A stretch of 64,000 nucleotides of DNA from Octopus vulgaris (lineage: Eukaryota), in assembly GCA_951406725.2 (NCBI GenBank), contig OX597815.1:71424001-71488000 (forward strand), written 5' to 3'. This document shows positions 3,682-42,079 of this stretch, one piece after another; within the stretch, counting starts at the first letter, position 1; each line of letters starts with the position of its first letter. The notes under the pieces were generated by a model. That model searched no databases. It saw only the letters and a list, made by a program, of their open reading frames with translations, and was not told the origin of the DNA. Both the position numbers and the translations under genes were made by a program.

Positions 3682-4001
3682 GTATGTATATATCTATGTA
3701 TGTATGTATATATATGTCTATGTATATATGCCTCCGTATGTATGTATGTATATATGTATATATATATATATATATATATTATATATGTGTATATATGTAT
3801 GTATATATACACGTTTGTATATATGTATGTATATATACACATGTTTGTATATATGTATATATACACATGTTTGTATATATGTATATATATACACATGTTT
3901 GTATATATGTATGTATATATACACATGTTTGTATATATGTATGTCTATATACATATGTACCTATATATGTATGTATATATACATATGTATGTGTATATAT
4001 A
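3190..4001. repeat. Compound (TA)n/(TATG)n microsatellite, interrupted by a SINE 3' fragment at 3377-3492
   Basis: Direct reading. The fragment matches the 3' end of the SINE at 9053-9365. Confidence 0.9.
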
Positions 4002-4003
4002 TA

Positions 4004-5291
4004 CAGGGTGGGGAAGCAAAATTTACAATATTTTGAGGCAGGGATTGAAAGACAGTGTACAACCAGTTTGTTTATTGAAAGTCATGAGAATTTATTTGCC
4101 ACAAGACAATTTACATAATAGAAAATATTTTTATTCTATGTGTCCTCCTTCTTTCTCAATAAGTGCCTTCACACGCTTCCTGAAATTTGCACAGGCGTTC
4201 CTCAAATATTCGGGAGACAACTTCTCCCATTCTTCTTTAATCGTATCTTTAAGATAGTTGACATTGCTGTGTAATGTTCTATTGATAGCATGTTCTAAAG
4301 TGCCCCAAATAGCATAATCCAGAGAGTTTAGATCTGGGCTGGAATGCGACCATAAACATGATTCCAAAAAATTGCTAAAGTTGGATTTGCAGAAATCTTG
4401 TATTTTTCTAGTTGTGTGGGCTGGAGCACCATCCTGTATCCATACATAATTACCATCTGGGCAGTTTGCTTTAAGCTATGGCAATACCTGGTATCTCAGA
4501 GTCTTGTAGTAAGTATTAACATTGATCTTTTCATCAGCTTTGTAGAATTTTATACGCATTTTCTTTCCATCAGAAGCCACAACACCAAAAGCCATAACTT
4601 GAGCAGGATGTTTTGTTTTTAATGTCCCCTTAACCTCAGCTGTTGATTTTCCGATAAATCTGTCATTTCTGCTGTTCAGAACAGCATCGACAGTGAAGAT
4701 CTTTTCATCTGAAAAGATTGTTACAATGGAGGACTTTTTCTTGAAACATGTAATAATTTTCTTGCACTTCTCCAATCTCTTTTCCTTCATAGCTGTTGTC
4801 AACAAGTGTTTTGGTGTTCTTGTATAAGATTTTAACCTCAAATCATATTTTACAGCATTTCTAATGGTCTTGTTGTCTACCTCAAGTTCAATTGCCATTT
4901 TTCTCATGGATTTGGTTGGATCCTTTAGGATTTGGGATTTGAGAGCTTTAATAAAAGCTTTGGTACGTCTTTTGTTGATTTCTCAACTTCCAGACTTCCT
5001 CGTAATAGATTTGCTCATAGTCATTCTATTCTTTACCTTATAAATAGTCTTTATGGACACTTCAACTATTCTTGAAATCTCCTTTAGTGTGACGAGTGCA
5101 TTCAGAAAATCACACACTCTTTGACTTTTGCTTTCCTGATTACTCATATGGGCAAAAGTTTCTGAAAAGGTAAGGATAATAATGTTAGGTATGAGTATAA
5201 CATCAATATATGCTAGGTTTCAAAACAATTGACTTAGTGCCTGCTGAGAAAAAAACAACTTAACGTTCATTGTAAATTTTGCTTCCCCATG
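4004..5291 (-). mobile_element. Tc1/mariner-superfamily DD37D (maT) transposon, full length
   Basis: Left end TA|CAGGGTGGGGAAGCAAAATTTACAAT (from 4004). Right end ATTGTAAATTTTGCTTCCCCATG|TA (5269-5291), which lacks 3 bp relative to the left TIR. TA target site on both sides. Confidence 0.92.
4131..5147 (-). pseudogene. DD37D (maT) transposase, two in-frame stops, no frameshift
   Basis: Single frame MSNQESKSQRVCDFL...SGS*EIN...IFSDEKIFTVD...VMAFGVV...QVLP*LKAN...WIQDGAPAH...SSPDLNSLDY...EGGHIE. There are 37 residues between the 2nd and 3rd catalytic Asp. Confidence 0.9.
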
Positions 5292-5355
5292 TATGTATGT
5301 ATGTATATATATATATGTATGTATGTATATGTATGTATATATAAATGTATGTGTA

Positions 5356-5398
<43 letters not shown>

Positions 5399-5403
5399 GT
5401 ATG

Positions 5404-5437
<34 letters not shown>

Positions 5438-5662
5438 TGTATATATGTATGTATGTATGTATATATGTATGTATGTATATATGTATGTATGTATATATGT
5501 ATGTATGTATGTATGTATATATGTATGCATATATGTATATGTATGCATATATGTATATGTATGCATATATGTATATGTATGCATATATGTATATGTATGC
5601 ATATATGTATATGTATGCATATATGTATATGTATGTATATATGTGTATGTATATATGTGTAT

Positions 5663-5710
<48 letters not shown>

Positions 5711-5716
5711 GCACAT

Positions 5717-5750
<34 letters not shown>

Positions 5751-5827
5751 ATGTATATGTATATATATATGCACATATATATATGTATGTATATATATAT
5801 ATGCACATATATATATGTATATATATA
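5292..5827. repeat. (TATG)n/(TA)n compound microsatellite
   Basis: Direct reading. Confidence 0.95.
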
Positions 5828-6283
5828 TTCATTTCTTGCGAGCTTACGCATATCCTCAGCAGTCACATGGATGTGTAATGTCAGTGTTCATAATCGACAG
5901 AGTGTAAGTACCTTGAGAGAAAAGTTGGACCTAAGAAGCATTAGTTGTGGTGTGCAGTCTGCGCTGGTATGGGCATGTGACGAGAATGGGTGAAGATAGT
6001 TGTGAGCAAAAGTGCCACACCTTAGCAGTTGAGGGAACCTGTGGAAGAGGTAGACCCAGGAAAACCTGGGACGAGGTGGTGAAGCACGACCTTCGAACTT
6101 TAGGTCTCACCAAGGAAATGACTAGAGACTGAGACCTATGGAAGTATGCTGTGCATGAGAAGACCTGGCAAGACCAGTGAGAACAGTCAAAATCAAAATC
6201 AAAATCAAACCAAATCAATCAGATATCAGAAAGCAGAACCAAAATTGAGGTCGATCAACATCAGTGGAAATTGCAGCTGTGGT
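5828..6283 (+). mobile_element. 5'-truncated RTE LINE copy with inverted 5' segment
   Basis: 5867-6180 encodes [25 protein letters not shown]../LRWYGHVTRM..GRGRPRKTWDEVVKHD, the same family as 29524-31801. 5828-5866 is the upstream [13 protein letters not shown] segment in opposite orientation. Confidence 0.88.
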
Positions 6284-6661
6284 TAAGTGAACCATCCGAT
6301 ATTTACATATATATGTAAATATATAGAACTTTTGAACTTGGCATACCAATCATGAGCGGTTCTTTCACCTACAGCACCCTCTCCATACCCAGCACAAATG
6401 TCGCAAGCAGCTTTTGTGGCCTTAGAACCTTGATTAAAAGTAAAAAGTAGGTGGTGTCAAAAATGCTCGTTTTTGTTAATTTGACATTCCATTTCAATGA
6501 TCTGAAAATGAATAAATATATATATAGATAGATATAAATAAATATATTTATATACATAGATATATATGTGTGTGTCTATATATATATAAAAGAAATTAAT
6601 GAAGAAAAATGCACACACTTTACATAGTTTTAATAATTTTTGATATATGCCATATTGTGTT

Positions 6662-6694
6662 TGTCAACAGGTTTTGCTTTTGCTAATCATGACA
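6662..6694 (-). ncRNA. Minimal hammerhead ribozyme motif, A3-U8 variant (decayed copy)
   Basis: Minus strand: UGUC-AUGAUUA-GC AAAA GC-AAAA-CCUG-UU-GACA. G12 has changed to A at a CpG site. Confidence 0.55.
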
Positions 6695-7004
6695 GTAAAA
6701 TTTATTTAAATTTGTATTTTCTTAAGAAAGTGTTTTTTGTCCATATTGTGTGTATAGTTTATGAATGATTGATTCAACAAGTAGAAAAATCTAAAGGGAG
6801 GTAATTGTTTATTGTAATTATGGACAGGGAGATTATTGTTCATCTTTCGGTGGGGGAAGGCGAATATATATATATATGTGTGTGTGTGTGTATACACAAA
6901 AATTCAAAAGCTTGAGTAGTGGGGAGAAATATATACAGTGATGGGTATGTAAGCGTGAATCAAATATGTATAGAGATTAAAGTTGGAATGCATAATTTTT
7001 TTTT

Positions 7005-8230
7005 ATTATTGAATCTAAAAGTTTATACTTCAGAACAATTATTTCGTATTTGATGACATCTACTATCGTCAAAAATGTGAAATTGCAATGGGAACAAAAG
7101 CAACCACTGTTCTTGTGAGCCTGATAACAGGTTATTTTGAATTCACCATATATGAAATGTCACTGCAAAGATATGGTTATGCATTTTACCATTACATAAG
7201 AGAAATCTGGAAAAGACACCTGGATGACTGTTTTATCATTTGGAAGGAGACCATTGCTAAACTTTTGGAATTCAAATCAACACTAAATGATATAAATAGT
7301 AACATTCAATTCATAATGGAATAAAGCAAAGCACAGTTCCCATTTTTGGATATTATGATTAAAAAACTGACATTTATCATAAACCAAAGGGCTCAAAGTA
7401 TTATCTCCCTTTTAGTTCATGCCACTCAAAATAAATATCCCCTTTAATTTGGCGAAAATAGTGTTTGATAGAACTACTCGGGACATTCATCTTCAAAACC
7501 TCAGAACAACACTAACTGAAAGACAATATCCACCCTCACTTATAGATGATGGAATTAAGCGTGCCAAGAAATTAGATATAAAAACACTAAGGACAACAAA
7601 ACATAACACCACACCTCATCTCAAAACACTACTGTATATATCAACTCACAACCTTAGAAGCAATGAGGCATAGAACACTTATACAAAATCTTACTTTATT
7701 AACTAGAGACCTAAAAATGAACATCCTGAAGGCAAATAAATTCATTAAATGCAAAAAGCAACACAAATTGCTAAAGAGACTTCTAACAAATCTGAAGTTT
7801 ACACAACAACCACGAAACGAATGGTTAAAAAATGTGGATGCTCAAACTATGGAAAATGCCCCAACGCACTTCAAGGTTGGGATTTCCTTTTCAAACAAGG
7901 AGTGAGGTTCACATTTAAAATCAAATTCACTTGTACCTCTGAGAATCTAATTTATGTAATAACCTGCTTGGGTTGTGGACATCACTATATAGGACAGACA
8001 AGTATGGCATTGAGATGGAGAACCACTCTAAATAAAGAGCAGATCCTGTTCCCACAATACAGAGAGATTCCTTTCCGTGAACACATAGAGATATGTGCAG
8101 TTTTCCCCTTCTACTAGTGAAATTTCACAATTTTCCATTTCTACTAGTGAAAAGATAAACATTTCTTTACAAGAACATTTAAATAAAGAAAATTTATTCA
8201 TCATAAAATAGAGAGCAAATCTACATATGC
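7005..8230 (+). pseudogene. Penelope-like RT plus GIY-YIG endonuclease, degraded
   Basis: NNYFVFDDIYYRQKCEIAMGT..WKRHLDDCFIIW..NIQFIME*..FPFLDI (PLE RT), NIPFNLA..RQYPPSLI (thumb), and FTCTSENLIYVITCLGCGHHYIGQT (GIY-YIG). Multiple frameshifts. Confidence 0.88.
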
Positions 8231-8512
8231 ATGCATAACCAACTTTAATCTCTATACATATTTTAATTCACAATTATATACCCATCGTTGTACATATTTC
8301 TCCCCACTACTCTAGTTTTTCAATTTTTGTGCTTATAATATCTCCCCACCCAAAGAAAGATCAACTATTATCTCCCCTGTCCACAATAATAATGATAACC
8401 AATTACCTCTCCTTAGATTTTTCTACTTCTTGAATCAATCAGTCATAAACTCGACACACAACATAGACAGAAATTTTTTTCTTAAGAAGATACATATTTA
8501 AATAAATTCTAA

Positions 8513-8545
8513 TGTCATGATTAGCAAAAGTGAAACCAGTCAACA
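8513..8545 (+). ncRNA. Minimal hammerhead ribozyme motif, A3-U8 variant
   Basis: UGUC-AUGAUUA-GC AAAA GU-GAAA-CCAG-UC-AACA. The two copies imply the consensus UGUC AUGAUUA GC AAAA GC GAAA CCGG UC GACA. Confidence 0.65.
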
Positions 8546-8676
8546 AACACAGTATAAGCTGTATTAAAAATTATATTAAACTATGTAAAGTGTATGCATT
8601 TTCCTTCTTTAATTTCTTATATATATTACAAACCATCACATGGAGATAATCACGATTCCTCCCTTTCTACTACTAC

Positions 8677-8708
<32 letters not shown>

Positions 8709-8710
8709 AA

Positions 8711-9036
8711 AGCGCATGGCTCAGTGGTTAGAGCATTGAACTGACGACCGTGAGGTTGTGAGTTTGAATCCCGGACCAGGCTGCTTGTTGTGTTCTTGAG
8801 CAAGACACTTTATTTCATGTTGCTCCAGTTTATTCAGCTGTAGAAATGAGTTGCGACGTCACTGGTGCCAAGCTGTATCGGCCTTTCCCTTTCCCTTGGA
8901 TAACATCAGTGGTATGGAGAGGGGAGGCTGATATGCATGGGTAATTGCTGGTCTTCCATAAACAACCTTGCCCTGACTTGTACCAGGTGCATCTTCCTCG
9001 GAGGGTAACTTTCTAGGTGCAATCCCATGGTCATTC
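8711..9036 (+). mobile_element. tRNA-derived SINE, family B
   Basis: A box TGGCTCAGTGG, B box GAGTTTGAATCC, body CTTGAGCAAGACACTT..TGCTCCAG..CAGCTGTAGAAATGAG. A reverse copy lies at about 13405-13710. Confidence 0.8.
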
Positions 9037-9052
9037 TCTGATATATATATAT

Positions 9053-9365
9053 GTGTGTGGCCCAGTGGTTAGGGCAGCAGACTCGTGGTCGTAGGATCGC
9101 GGTTTTGATTCCCAGACCAGGCATTGTAAGCGTTTATTGAATGAAAACACCTAAAGCTCCACGAGGCTTCGGCAGGGGTGATCCCTGCTGTACTCTTTTG
9201 CCACAACTTTTTCTCACTCTTTCTTCTGTTGGCTACAACTTACTCTCACTCTTTCTTCTTCAGTGGGGTGGCATCATTTGAAGGCTAAAACAATGCGAAG
9301 CGCATTGTGACCAGTGATGTGTAACAACATCTGATAGCCTGGTCAGTCACGGTGATCCCGGTGAG
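9053..9365 (+). mobile_element. tRNA-derived SINE, family C
   Basis: A box TGGCCCAGTGG and B box GGTTTTGATTCC. The 3' part (GGGGTGGCATCATTTGAAGGCTAAAACAATGCGAAGCGCATTG) recurs at 3377-3492. Confidence 0.78.
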
Positions 9366-9388
9366 ATATATACATACACACATATATA

Positions 9389-9421
<33 letters not shown>

Positions 9422-9422
<1 letters not shown>

Positions 9423-9700
9423 GGCGCAGGAGTGGCTATGTGGTAAGTAGCTTGCTTACGAACCACATGGTTCTAGGTTCAGTCCCACTATGTGGCACCT
9501 TGGGCAAGTGCCTTCTACTGTAGCCTCAGGCCGACCAAAGCCTTGTGAGTGGATTTGGTACATGGAAACTGAAAGAAGCCCGTCGCATATATGTATATAT
9601 ATATATGTGTGTGTATGTTTGTGTGCCTGTGTTTGTTCCCCCAACATAACTTGACAACCGATGCTGGTGTGTTTACATCCCCGTAACTTAGCTTGGCAAG
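9422..9700 (+). mobile_element. tRNA-derived SINE, family A
   Basis: GGCGCAGGAGTGGCTATGTGGTAAG..GGTTCAGTCCCAC..CCTTGGGCAAGTG..GAAACTGAAAGAAGCCCGTCG. Many related copies occur across the window. Confidence 0.85.
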
Positions 9701-10199
9701 AAAGATTATTGGAGGCTGGTGAGAAAGATTGTTGGAGGTTGGTGAGAGGCAAAGATATTATTCTGCTTAGCGAAGGTATCTGGGAAATGTATAACTGCTG
9801 TCATTCACAGAAAAACTATTGTTTTACCTTGAGAAAAGCGCTGTTGAAATGTTGAGAGAAATTTGGCAATCAGGGATTGAATCCATGCTATGCCTGCATG
9901 AAGCCACTACAAATACATTGTGGAATAAAAAATCCATCTACTGTCATGGAGAAAGTGTAACTGTAAAAATGCAGAATTATCGGAGTAATGGGAATTCAAA
10001 AAAGTATGTATAGAAATGTATGAATGAAGTCTTTAATGTTTAAGATTCAAATTAAGGAAGTGCAATAATAATGCTTAGCAGTTCAAAACTGTGAGTAGTG
10101 AAATGAAATATTAGGTCAGCTGATCATGAGAATAGAATATTGATCATGTGAATAAAATCTGCAGGTGGTATGGGTTATTGGAATTGGGTTTAAATAAAA

Positions 10200-10677
10200 T
10201 ATTAGAAATATGTAGTAGATAGAAGGATCCATTGGAAGAGTCGTATTATCGATTTTTTTTTCAACAATCCAAGTATGTCAGGAGGTTTCCAGACATGAGT
10301 TCTACTCATGTGTCAAAGTTATAAAAGTGATATTGTCTGCAAAAATTAGAAATAGGACATTAAAAAAAAATCAATACTGAAATTAGTAATTGAACATAAG
10401 CAATGAAATGGATTGCTTCCCTTGAGTGTTTAAAAAAATATTGTACAGGTGCTTTGGGTTATTTCCCTTTAGTTATATGAGGTAGATATAAAGGTCCCTT
10501 CCAGAGGCCGTATTATCAATTTTTTCAACAATCTAAGTATGTCACAAGGTTTCCAGACATCAGTTCTACTCACATATCAAGTTTCATCAAAATCAATAAA
10601 ATGATGTAGGAGGAGATAGCTAACAACACCACGAACAAACACACCCACAGGCAGAATTTCCCACATATGTAGTAGAT
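10200..10677 (+). mobile_element. Helitron-like non-autonomous repeat with an internal ~90-bp duplication
   Basis: The end AAGTTTCATCAAAATC..GTAGGAGGAGATAGC..ACACAC..ATATGTAGTAGAT resembles non-autonomous Helitron-type 3' ends. 10235-10320 duplicates 10503-10583. Confidence 0.45.
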
Positions 10678-11492
<815 letters not shown>

Positions 11493-11898
11493 TAACTTTT
11501 GGATCTACCAAGTTTCATTATTAAGGATGGAAAGTAGTGTGTGGCAGGTTTGGTAGCCTTCAACTAACACTATCTCCATCGAGACCCTGCAGTGCAAGTT
11601 GACCATATATATGTAAAGTCAAAAGGAAAAGTAAGTACATTTAGGCAGCAATTAATTGCTAGAAATGTTTGGATACATACAGATCCTCTTTGCGTAATGG
11701 TACAGTTTGGCATATGCCGAATAACATGTTGAAACTGAATAAATAAACAGACAACTTGCATATTGCAGCTGATGTTGAACGTGATGACACTCTCATAGCA
11801 AGCAAATTGAAACCATCAGCATTTGTTAGTTTCAAACAAGAAGCCATAGATGTTGTAACATGGAAATCTAGATTTACTTACGGACACAGCATCTGAAT

Positions 11899-12020
11899 AT
11901 CGCCTGAGGTGATACATATAGATCTTCTTATACAGTTAAATCGTTACGTAACTTAATTTAAACTTAACTTTAAATCCTATATATACAAAGATCTGTATGT
12001 ATTGAAACATTTGTAGCGAT
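11899..12020 (+). ncRNA. Hammerhead ribozyme motif with a long helix II and an A9U substitution
   Basis: Helix I AUCGC/GCGAU, core CUGAGGU, 16-bp helix II GAUACAUAUAGAUCUU/AAGAUCUGUAUGUAUU, then GAAA-C-AUUU-G-UA. Confidence 0.65.
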
Positions 12021-41287: not shown

Positions 41288-41290
<3 letters not shown>

Positions 41291-42038
41291 GAAATATTTA
41301 AGATTAAATCAAATTTCACCTGTGCCTTGGAAAATCTAATCTATGCGATTACATGCTTAAGGTGTGGTAATCATTATATTGGCCAAATAGGAATATCACT
41401 CCGTCAAAGAACCACTCTCCACAAAGAACAAATCTGTCATCCACAATACTGACAGATACAGGTCAGTGAACACATAGAAAGGTGTGCTAGGAACTTTAAT
41501 CCTAATTTCCTAATTTTCCCCTTCTATCAATGTTCACAAAACACTACAGTACAACAAAGAATGAATAAAGAGGCAACTTTTATAAATAAATATCTTCCAC
41601 AACTCAATATGAACACATAACTTAATACAGAACACCACTATCTTTTCAATTAATACCACCCATACATCCTATACACCATTCACATTACAAATCTATATCT
41701 ACCCTAATTGCACCAAATCCAGAACTACTTACCTCCCTTACACATAATCTTTTTACTCAAGGACTAGTAGACCCAACACCGTTCGGTAATCGGTGTGCAT
41801 TCAAAGCAGTGATCAGTAATTTTTATGAAACTGGTATGCTTTTGAATCTCTTTAACAATTCACATGAATGACTTTTATTACTTTTATTCCTACCTCAGTT
41901 CATCTAATTGTATATATCTATCGTTACTTTTCATAAAAAGCCTTTACTTTTTGGGATTTCCAATGTGCATTTTCGCTTATTTTTCTTCTTACTTTACCCT
42001 TACATTTCTACGTATAGTTACTATTTTCTTTCTGTAAC

Positions 42039-42045
<7 letters not shown>
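41288..42045 (+). mobile_element. Penelope-like element 3' fragment (GIY-YIG domain 41288-41620 plus 3' UTR)
   Basis: FKIKSNFTCALENLIYAITCLRCGNHYIGQIG..RTTLHKEQI..SEHIERC..IFPFYQ..NKEATFINKYLPQLN, related to 7900-8230. (TA)n on both sides. Confidence 0.88.
41799..41847 (+). ncRNA. Minimal hammerhead ribozyme, G3-C8 variant
   Basis: AUUCAAAGCA-GUGAUCA-GUAA UUU UUAU-GAAA-CUGG-UA-UGCUUUUGAAU, with a 10-bp helix I (one bulge) and a GUA triplet. Confidence 0.78.

Positions 42046-42079
<34 letters not shown>

What the first reader, a model, noticed from the sequence alone, without database searches (positions are those of the whole stretch)
8513..8545. A3-U8 hammerhead of only 33 nt, present in both arms of a Penelope-like element
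Both diverged arms (6662-6694 minus, 8513-8545 plus) keep AUGAUUA. Their differences fall at inferred CpG sites and complement each other, giving UGUC AUGAUUA GC-AAAA-GC GAAA CCGG UC|GACA. This would be an extremely small hammerhead with a 2-bp helix II and a rare A-U core pair. It lies about 300 nt downstream of the GIY-YIG ORF, where PLE ribozymes are expected.
Basis: partly seen in the sequence, partly recalled or inferred. Interest (0 to 1): 0.75.

Follow-up and report, generated by a model that had tools for sequence, protein, structure and literature searches.

The report
Tiny jumping-gene hammerheads swap core pair
This is a decayed copy of a very small hammerhead motif, likely a slow self-cutting RNA, at the ends of a jumping-gene family; related families in the same animal genome carry four different letter pairs at one core position but never the textbook pair, which would hide them from standard searches.

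Summary
Confirmed and extended. Both arms of a truncated Neptune/Nematis-type Penelope-like element (RT plus GIY-YIG) hold the motif. All 8 differences from the family majority sit at CpGs. The true loop II is GAAA, not AAAA. The intact 33-nt form occurs in 43 exact copies, and its core in 671 (reversed controls 0).

Sister families keep the same 8-nt helix II and CCGG palindrome but pair positions 3-8 as A-U, G-C, U-A or U·G. Helix I covaries. Canonical C3-G8 on this scaffold has 0 matches in the genome. Isolated 35-nt motifs of the A-U families fold best as a double hammerhead.

Likely mechanism: slow, dimer-dependent cleavage after GUC in tandem transcripts (untested). Both window copies are probably dead.

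Already in print: U3-A8, U3·G8, 2-bp stems II and 34-35-nt PLE hammerheads. I found no natural A3-U8 or G3-C8 in the papers searched, but Lünse 2017 was unreadable. The scan previously noted A3-U8 in another genome and 3-8 covariation elsewhere in this one. Verdict: new variant of a known kind.

The parts
8513..8545 (+). Minimal type I hammerhead motif, right arm. Helix I 8513-16/8542-45; core A3 U4 G5 A6 U7 U8 A9 8517-23; helix II hairpin 8524-31; G12 A13 A14 A15.1 8532-35; palindromic helix III hexamer 8535-40; predicted cut after 8541. Decayed at 8526, 8531, 8538 and 8542; probably inactive.
6662..6694 (-). Same motif in the inverted left arm. G12 lost, palindrome broken, C17 changed to U; probably inactive.
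8231..8626 (+). Right pseudo-LTR (3' UTR and terminal repeat) of the element
   Evidence: 79% to left arm; copies share the 3' end near 8626
8627..8678 (+). 'Tail' extension, present only at this end of the insertion, followed by TA/TG microsatellite (end approximate)
   Evidence: PLE tail described in passages of PMC8557442
6582..6993 (-). Inverted, 5'-truncated copy of the pseudo-LTR (left arm), without tail, ending in TA repeats
7019..7437 (+). Broken, 5'-truncated reverse transcriptase (residues 217-362 of the 635-aa ORF in L098, 67-79% identical)
   Evidence: L098 ORF matches Pfam RVT_1 at E 1.1e-6, just under the curated cut-off
7425..8238 (+). Broken RT thumb, decayed CX4CX2C linker (about 7833-7859) and GIY-YIG endonuclease (motif about 7950-7994); stop at 8236-8238
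   Evidence: L098 ORF matches Pfam GIY-YIG at E 1.6e-6, above cut-off

Best explanation
The stretch is a decayed copy of a very small hammerhead motif in the terminal repeat of a Penelope-like retrotransposon; in intact tandem elements two such motifs likely pair through a 6-nt palindrome and are predicted to cut the element's RNA slowly after GUC.

Shown: the motif sits about 300 nt after the endonuclease stop and, in tandem copies, 172-210 nt before the conserved start codon of the next unit. U4 G5 A6, A9, G10.1-C11.1, GAAA, the CCGG palindrome and U16.1 are kept across families whose flanks differ. Helix I covaries. Positions 3-8 pair as A-U, G-C, U-A or U·G, and position 17 is C, A or U.

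Predicted by folding: the monomer is marginal and the double hammerhead is favoured.

Inferred: cleavage is slow and probably needs help from the element's own protein, as reported for the Anolis element. It would trim the 5' end of read-through transcripts, removing the upstream AUG that A3-U4-G5 creates. Most RNA used for reverse transcription would still carry an uncut or re-ligated site. The two copies in this window are probably dead and point in opposite directions.
For: Copy numbers: 43 exact copies of the 33-mer; 671 intact cores, 92 of the first 100 listed being A3-U8 by hand count; reversed controls 0.

Copies chosen by endonuclease protein, not by motif: U8 in 19 of 19, A3 in 18 of 19, with helix I changed on both sides. 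Helix I pair 2.3-1.3 over 139 copies: G-C 68, A-U 50, G·U 6, non-pairs 15.

Same scaffold with 3 not A and 8 not U: 121 matches, control 0. By hand count of the first 100 listed: 90 Watson-Crick, 4 U·G, 6 non-pairs. The U·G family is confirmed in 23 of 27 copies. These families lie 3' of related endonuclease ORFs.

Structure count on 17 rows: 87.6% of cells paired, covariation 0.634 against 0.174 +/- 0.035 shuffled and at most 0.216 slid; pair 3-8 formed in 17 of 17. G17 gives only 8 matches, all variants of these families. Non-CpG core sites differ in 6 of 330 cells against 188 of 2710 in flanks, p = 7e-5.

Dimer minimum-energy fold of 35-mers L034 and L082 is the double hammerhead, -16.5 and -13.3 kcal/mol against -4.2 and -2.6 as monomers. 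Contigs of runs labelled as three other organisms show listed variation within the motif only in loop II (4 rows not shown).

Published parallels: dimer-only, weak cleavage of PLE min-HHRs; protein-assisted cleavage and partial rescue by G3-C8 in Anolis; slow but real cleavage with a 0-1 bp helix II.
Against: No cleavage data, and no raw RNA reads were available.

With 75 nt of context the hammerhead dimer was not the minimum-energy fold in any of 5 valid cases, although the palindromic duplex persisted. For the G-C and U-A 35-mers other folds also won. The inner pair of helix II forms in only 11 of 17 rows.

The rows were hand-picked from pattern hits that fixed the core, G10.1-C11.1 and helix III, so only helix I, pair 3-8 and the inner helix II pair are real tests. 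The rows are also related, and the 3-8 changes are few events (three groups on a tree of 26 rows).

Genomic 5' ends show no pile-up at the predicted cut: 7 distinct insertions among 30 loci run through the upstream motif, and 1 starts near the site. The core-versus-flank test is inflated by alignment noise in AT-rich flanks. Rfam finds nothing, but it also missed a canonical control.
Confidence: 0.75

Rival explanations
1. The hammerhead fold is kept mainly as a structural signal (protein binding, RNA dimerisation, or positioning of reverse-transcription start 80-135 nt downstream), and cleavage is negligible in vivo.
For: Every insertion that carries the motif was copied from RNA with an intact site, and 7 distinct insertions run through the upstream motif. 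The clade never uses C3-G8. In Anolis, catalytic mutants did not affect insertion in vitro and no RNA-seq read ends were found at the site (passages).
Against: Position 17 follows the cleavage rule (C, A or U; G only in 8 scattered variants). G12, A9 and pairing at 3-8 are kept across families. These are catalytic-state features that a mere binding site would hardly need.
Confidence: 0.15
2. Both motifs cut and the unit re-ligates into a circle of about 3.9 kb, which is the template for reverse transcription. Cleavage is then efficient, and intact sites in the genome reflect re-ligation.
For: It explains copies longer than one unit, with variable 5' ends passing through an intact motif. It was proposed for PLEs in PMC4209133.
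Against: Uncut read-through RNA from tandem copies explains the same pattern. Unprocessed RNA was the dominant substrate in the Anolis assay. I have no circular-RNA evidence here.
Confidence: 0.08
3. A3 is fixed because A3-U4-G5 is the element's start codon, or the whole match is chance.
For: A3-U4-G5 reads AUG, and in the Anolis element the ORF starts inside the hammerhead.
Against: The conserved start lies 172-210 nt downstream, in varying phase. The frame from the core AUG closed after 3-18 codons in 4 of 5 tandem copies. Sister families have G or U at position 3. Chance is excluded by controls of 0.
Confidence: 0.02

Closest known systems
Minimal type I hammerheads (min-HHR) of metazoan PLE pseudo-LTRs; Cervera and De la Pena 2014, PMC4209133 (read: main text parts 1-3 of 4, supplement file 2 parts 1-2 of 3 plus search passages; file 1 not readable)
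   Same: Type I topology, short helix I, palindromic helix III that needs a dimer, G10.1-C11.1, position in both pLTRs. U3-A8 is reported for Schistosoma, and a U3·G8 row appears for Saccoglossus.
   Different: A3-U8 and G3-C8 occur in none of the 56 rows of Fig. S3. Helix II here is 1-2 bp in an 8-nt hairpin, against 3-8 bp. There is no extra nucleotide after A9. The published descriptor (cuganga, stem II at least 3 bp) would miss all these families. Total size (33 nt) is only 1-2 nt below the smallest rows there.
PAc (Poseidon, Anolis) hammerhead; PMC11167929 (passages)
   Same: pLTR hammerhead near the ORF start; tail signature; cleavage dispensable for insertion in vitro; engineered G3-C8 partly active.
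   Different: Natural C3-G8 core; the ORF starts inside the ribozyme there, 172-210 nt downstream here; different PLE clade.
Natural core and stem variants; Perreault et al. 2011, PMC3088659 (passages)
   Same: U3-A8 seen in nature; stem II often 2 bp and once 1 bp.
   Different: The passages read name U3-A8 only, in scattered examples, and not as a retroelement clade.
Short-helix-II type I hammerheads of chrysoviruses; PMC13725137 (passages)
   Same: Type I, 1-2 bp or absent helix II, slow cleavage (about 1e-2 to 1e-3 per min), located upstream of an ORF.
   Different: Long helix III, so active as monomers; viral; no 3-8 swap in the passages read.
Short-stem-III PLE hammerheads that cleave as dimers; Lünse, Weinberg and Breaker 2017 (not held; known only from a reference list and review passage, and from recall)
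   Same: Palindromic short stem III, dimer cleavage, PLE association.
   Different: Cannot tell. This paper may already contain A3-U8 or G3-C8 representatives.

Membership tests
Type I hammerhead ribozyme | U4 G5 A6, A9 and G12 A13 A14 core | tested here: met
   In 33 copies not selected by motif: U4 32, G5 32, A6 31, A9 33, G12 29, A13 33, A14 33. The left window copy itself lacks G12.
Type I hammerhead ribozyme | Base pair between positions 3 and 8 | tested here: met
   A-U in this family; G-C, U-A and U·G in sister families; paired in 17 of 17 rows; 94 of the first 100 rows by hand count.
Type I hammerhead ribozyme | A15.1-U16.1 pair and H17 (not G) cleavage site | tested here: met
   A15.1 33 of 33, U16.1 31 of 33. 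Families use C, A or U at 17; G17 only 8 matches.
Type I hammerhead ribozyme | Helix I closing the motif, with covariation | tested here: met
   All 5 pairs show changes on both sides; 82% of cells paired.
Type I hammerhead ribozyme | Helix II starting with G10.1-C11.1 | tested here: met
   G 30 of 33; C 26 of 33 plus 7 U from CpG decay. Inner pair weak: 11 of 17 rows.
Type I hammerhead ribozyme | Site-specific self-cleavage | not testable with these tools
   No assay; no raw RNA reads.
Type I hammerhead ribozyme | Match to an Rfam hammerhead model | tested here: inconclusive
   No hammerhead hit in window 4000-12000 or in 5 short loci, one of them a canonical C3-G8 control.
Type I hammerhead ribozyme | Loop I-loop II tertiary contact of fast hammerheads | not tested
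   Not searched for systematically; loop II varies freely.
PLE min-HHR as defined by the Cervera 2014 descriptor | CUGANGA box (C3-G8) | tested here: not met
   0 genomic matches for C3-G8 on this scaffold. I therefore file it as a variant, not as a member of that descriptor class.
PLE min-HHR as defined by the Cervera 2014 descriptor | Stem II of at least 3 bp | tested here: not met
   1-2 bp; descriptor text.
PLE min-HHR as defined by the Cervera 2014 descriptor | Palindromic helix III allowing a dimer; location in pLTR | tested here: met
   Self-complementary hexamer; dimer fold; found 3' of the ORF and 5' of the next unit.
EN+ Penelope-like element, Neptune/Nematis type | RT followed by C-terminal GIY-YIG in one frame | tested here: met
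   635-aa stop-free frame in L098; the window copy is broken.
EN+ Penelope-like element, Neptune/Nematis type | CX2-5CxxC linker before the endonuclease | tested here: met
   CX4CX2C at residue 504 of the L098 frame; definition from PMC8557442 passages.
EN+ Penelope-like element, Neptune/Nematis type | pLTR, inverted 5'-truncated copy, one-sided tail, TA targets | tested here: met
EN+ Penelope-like element, Neptune/Nematis type | Placement among reference RTs (Neptune versus Nematis) | not tested
   No reference PLE sequences available; the tree holds this genome's copies only.

The most novel reading that the evidence does not exclude
A whole clade of Penelope-like elements has been selected for a throttled hammerhead. 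It is stripped to an 8-nt helix II and uses any 3-8 pair except the textbook C-G, because the element needs mostly uncut RNA for reverse transcription and cuts only when its protein or a second copy permits. Such motifs escape CUGANGA-based searches and would be a widespread hidden class, the first natural set covering A-U, G-C, U-A and U·G on one scaffold.
Probability: 0.25. Interest if true: 0.7.

Novelty: new variant of a known kind. Interest (0 to 1): 0.5.

Why it matters
The 3-8 pair sits next to the general acid and is C-G in nearly all natural hammerheads. One retroelement clade here carries four other pairings on an otherwise fixed, near-minimal scaffold, which gives a natural series for measuring what the core tolerates. 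It also makes an open question testable: whether PLE hammerheads are tuned to be slow, and what they do for the element. In practice, published descriptors and Rfam miss these motifs, so hammerhead counts in animal genomes are probably too low.

Tried and rejected
- Rfam: no hammerhead hit in the window or in 5 short loci, control included.
- Pfam on 6 window ORF fragments: no RT or GIY-YIG hit; a longer copy was needed.
- Core AUG as the ORF start: rejected.
- Intron from the GTAAGT-like site about 55-70 nt after position 3: no consistent acceptor AG before the start (0-1 AG in the last 60 nt); unresolved.
- Other A3-U8 families with a different helix II: 71 matches, mostly decayed members of the same families, plus one further subfamily.
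- Pile-up of 5' ends at the cut site: not seen in 30 loci, several of them the same insertion.
- Sequencing runs: no RNA holder listed and contigs only, so no ends or expression could be read.
- Metagenome scan: 2 hits in GC-rich contigs, no PLE protein match, at most partial helix I; treated as chance.
- Folding with 75-nt context: hammerhead not the minimum-energy fold; the L261 row missed the motif and was dropped.
- Rows dropped before counts: 3 partial hits; 10 partial hits (19 of 29 loci used); 26 of 71 rows used for the tree.
- Literature searches for natural A3-U8 or G3-C8 found none. Not held: Lünse 2017, Przybilski and Hammann 2007, Hammann 2012, Nelson and Uhlenbeck 2008, Long and Uhlenbeck 1994. 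Their contents, and supplements of Craig 2021 and Perreault 2011 that I did not open, may bear on novelty.

Full report
1. Observation. They are the only 2 matches to the core pattern in the window, and 100 shuffles gave none. The genome is a 2.8-Gb animal assembly; earlier scan notes call it octopus-like, which I did not check. A DNA search gave 1546 first-look candidates, of which 40 were scored. In 33 aligned segments from 30 loci (3 partial hits dropped), A3 and U8 are each present in 33 of 33 and loop II begins with G in 26. The family motif is therefore helix I UGUC/GACA, core AUGAWUA, helix II GC-GAAA-GC, then GAAA, CCGG and UC. That form has 43 exact copies. All 8 differences of the window arms lie at CpGs. 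Both window copies have lost the palindrome; the left also lacks G12 and the right lacks the helix I pair next to the cut site.

2. The element. Between the arms lie broken RT and endonuclease frames. The endonuclease query has 12,893 first-look candidates. A 635-aa open frame in L098 matches RVT_1 and GIY-YIG and has the CX4CX2C linker of Neptune/Nematis elements. The layout is the typical PLE insertion: an inverted 5'-truncated pLTR, a tail at one end only, and TA flanks. Walking 5' through overlapping copies reached tandem junctions where the same motif precedes a conserved start codon by 172-210 nt. The unit is about 3.9 kb from motif to motif, pieced together from overlapping copies rather than read from one.

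3. Evidence that the fold is selected. Copies chosen by protein belong mostly to a younger subfamily with helix I UAUC/GAUA, N7 = A and loop GAUA (18 of 19). A third A-U subfamily has helix I UAGUC/GACUA. The intact core occurs 671 times, and 92 of the first 100 listed are A3-U8 (hand count). Excluding A3 and U8 revealed 121 more matches on the same 25-nt scaffold: G3-C8 families with A17, U3-A8 families with U17 or A17, and a U3·G8 family confirmed in 23 of 27 copies. Many of these loci lie 3' of related endonuclease frames; measured distances were 165-209 nt for the U-A and G-C families. On a tree of 26 endonuclease rows the A-U copies form one group (97/98), the U-A copies another (92/98), and the three G3 rows are unresolved. 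Canonical C3-G8 on this scaffold has 0 matches, although canonical hammerheads exist in the genome in other repeats. On 17 hand-picked rows the structure scores 0.634 in covariation against 0.174 shuffled; pair 3-8 forms in 17 of 17 rows, the inner helix II pair in 11 of 17. The core and helix III were fixed by my patterns, so they are not tested by that count. They are tested, whose copies were not chosen by motif. G17 is nearly absent (8 matches). Contigs from runs labelled as three other organisms vary within the motif only in loop II among listed differences.

4. Mechanism. Helix III in a monomer would be 2 bp with a 2-nt loop, which is not stable; the hexamer ACCGGU is self-complementary. 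For the isolated A-U 35-mers the dimer minimum-energy structure is the double hammerhead. With longer flanks, and for G-C and U-A copies, other folds compete, so folding help would be needed. I infer slow cleavage after position 17 when the two pLTR motifs of a tandem transcript meet, probably assisted by the element's protein as reported for Anolis. The upstream cut would leave a 5' end about 150-185 nt before the start codon and remove the short upstream frame opened by A3-U4-G5. Genomic copies derive from RNA with intact sites, and 5' ends do not pile up at the cut. This fits slow cleavage, but also a circular template or a non-catalytic role. That engineered 3-8 swaps keep activity rests on passages in PMC3088659 and PMC11167929; details for A3-U8 are recalled from Przybilski and Hammann 2007, which I could not read.

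5. Comparison. It works like the dimer-dependent min-HHRs of Cervera and De la Pena 2014 but fails their descriptor on two counts. U3-A8 and U3·G8 appear in that paper; A3-U8 and G3-C8 are in none of its 56 aligned rows. Two-pair stems II are known, and published PLE motifs come within 1-2 nt of this size. Nine literature searches found no natural A3-U8 or G3-C8, but Lünse 2017 and several kinetic papers were not held. Other papers seen: PMC8557442, PMC6765202, PMC3884650, PMC6155905 and PMC10085705 as passages; bioRxiv 10.64898/2026.07.22.740005, part 1 of 5. Earlier scan notes report A3-U8 in a PLE of another genome and 3-8 covariation elsewhere in this genome. I did not test either, and they are not support.

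6. Verdict. Real feature, correctly read, in two probably dead copies of an abundant family. New variant of a known kind. The notable part is the clade-wide use of four non-canonical pairs on a near-minimal scaffold. Interest 0.5.

Noticed in passing
window 41288-42060 (+); motif position 3 at 41809: Decayed 3' end of a second PLE from the G3-C8 family (72% to L117 and L210), with endonuclease fragment and a damaged hammerhead whose helix II region is 11 nt.
   Followed up: partly
L133-L139 (G000:C1:20002273-20004547), L145-L147 and many other places: Tandem arrays of about 359-bp units, each with a canonical C3-G8 type I hammerhead and CCGG palindrome; looks like a non-LTR retrozyme family, with inverted array halves.
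   Followed up: partly
L195-L205, L215-L244: The element has about 1.2 kb of apparently coding sequence upstream of the RT N-terminal region, starting MP/MS-x-P with a coiled-coil-like stretch. Whether it is one long frame or a separate ORF1 was not resolved.
   Followed up: partly
window 8583-8590 and equivalents: A GTAAGT/GTAAAG donor-like site follows the hammerhead in both A-U subfamilies; no consistent acceptor before the start codon.
   Followed up: partly
L247 (G000:C1:191170300-191170450); G000:C15:63465440-63465500; L112/L113: Very short back-to-back inverted stubs that fold over at or just before the hammerhead.
   Followed up: no
window 4131-5219 (-): Broken Tc1/mariner-like transposase (weak HTH_Tnp_Tc3_2 and DDE_3 hits).
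   Followed up: no
window 5935-6132 (+), 8700-9030, 9050-9350, 9420-9700: A fragment resembling the C-terminus of a LINE/RTE ORF and several SINE-like repeats next to TA microsatellites, judged by eye.
   Followed up: no
window 10151-10580: Two diverged direct copies about 265-284 bp apart.
   Followed up: no
L065 (-), near 1068: A 586-aa open RT frame of an unrelated non-LTR element beside a PLE copy.
   Followed up: no
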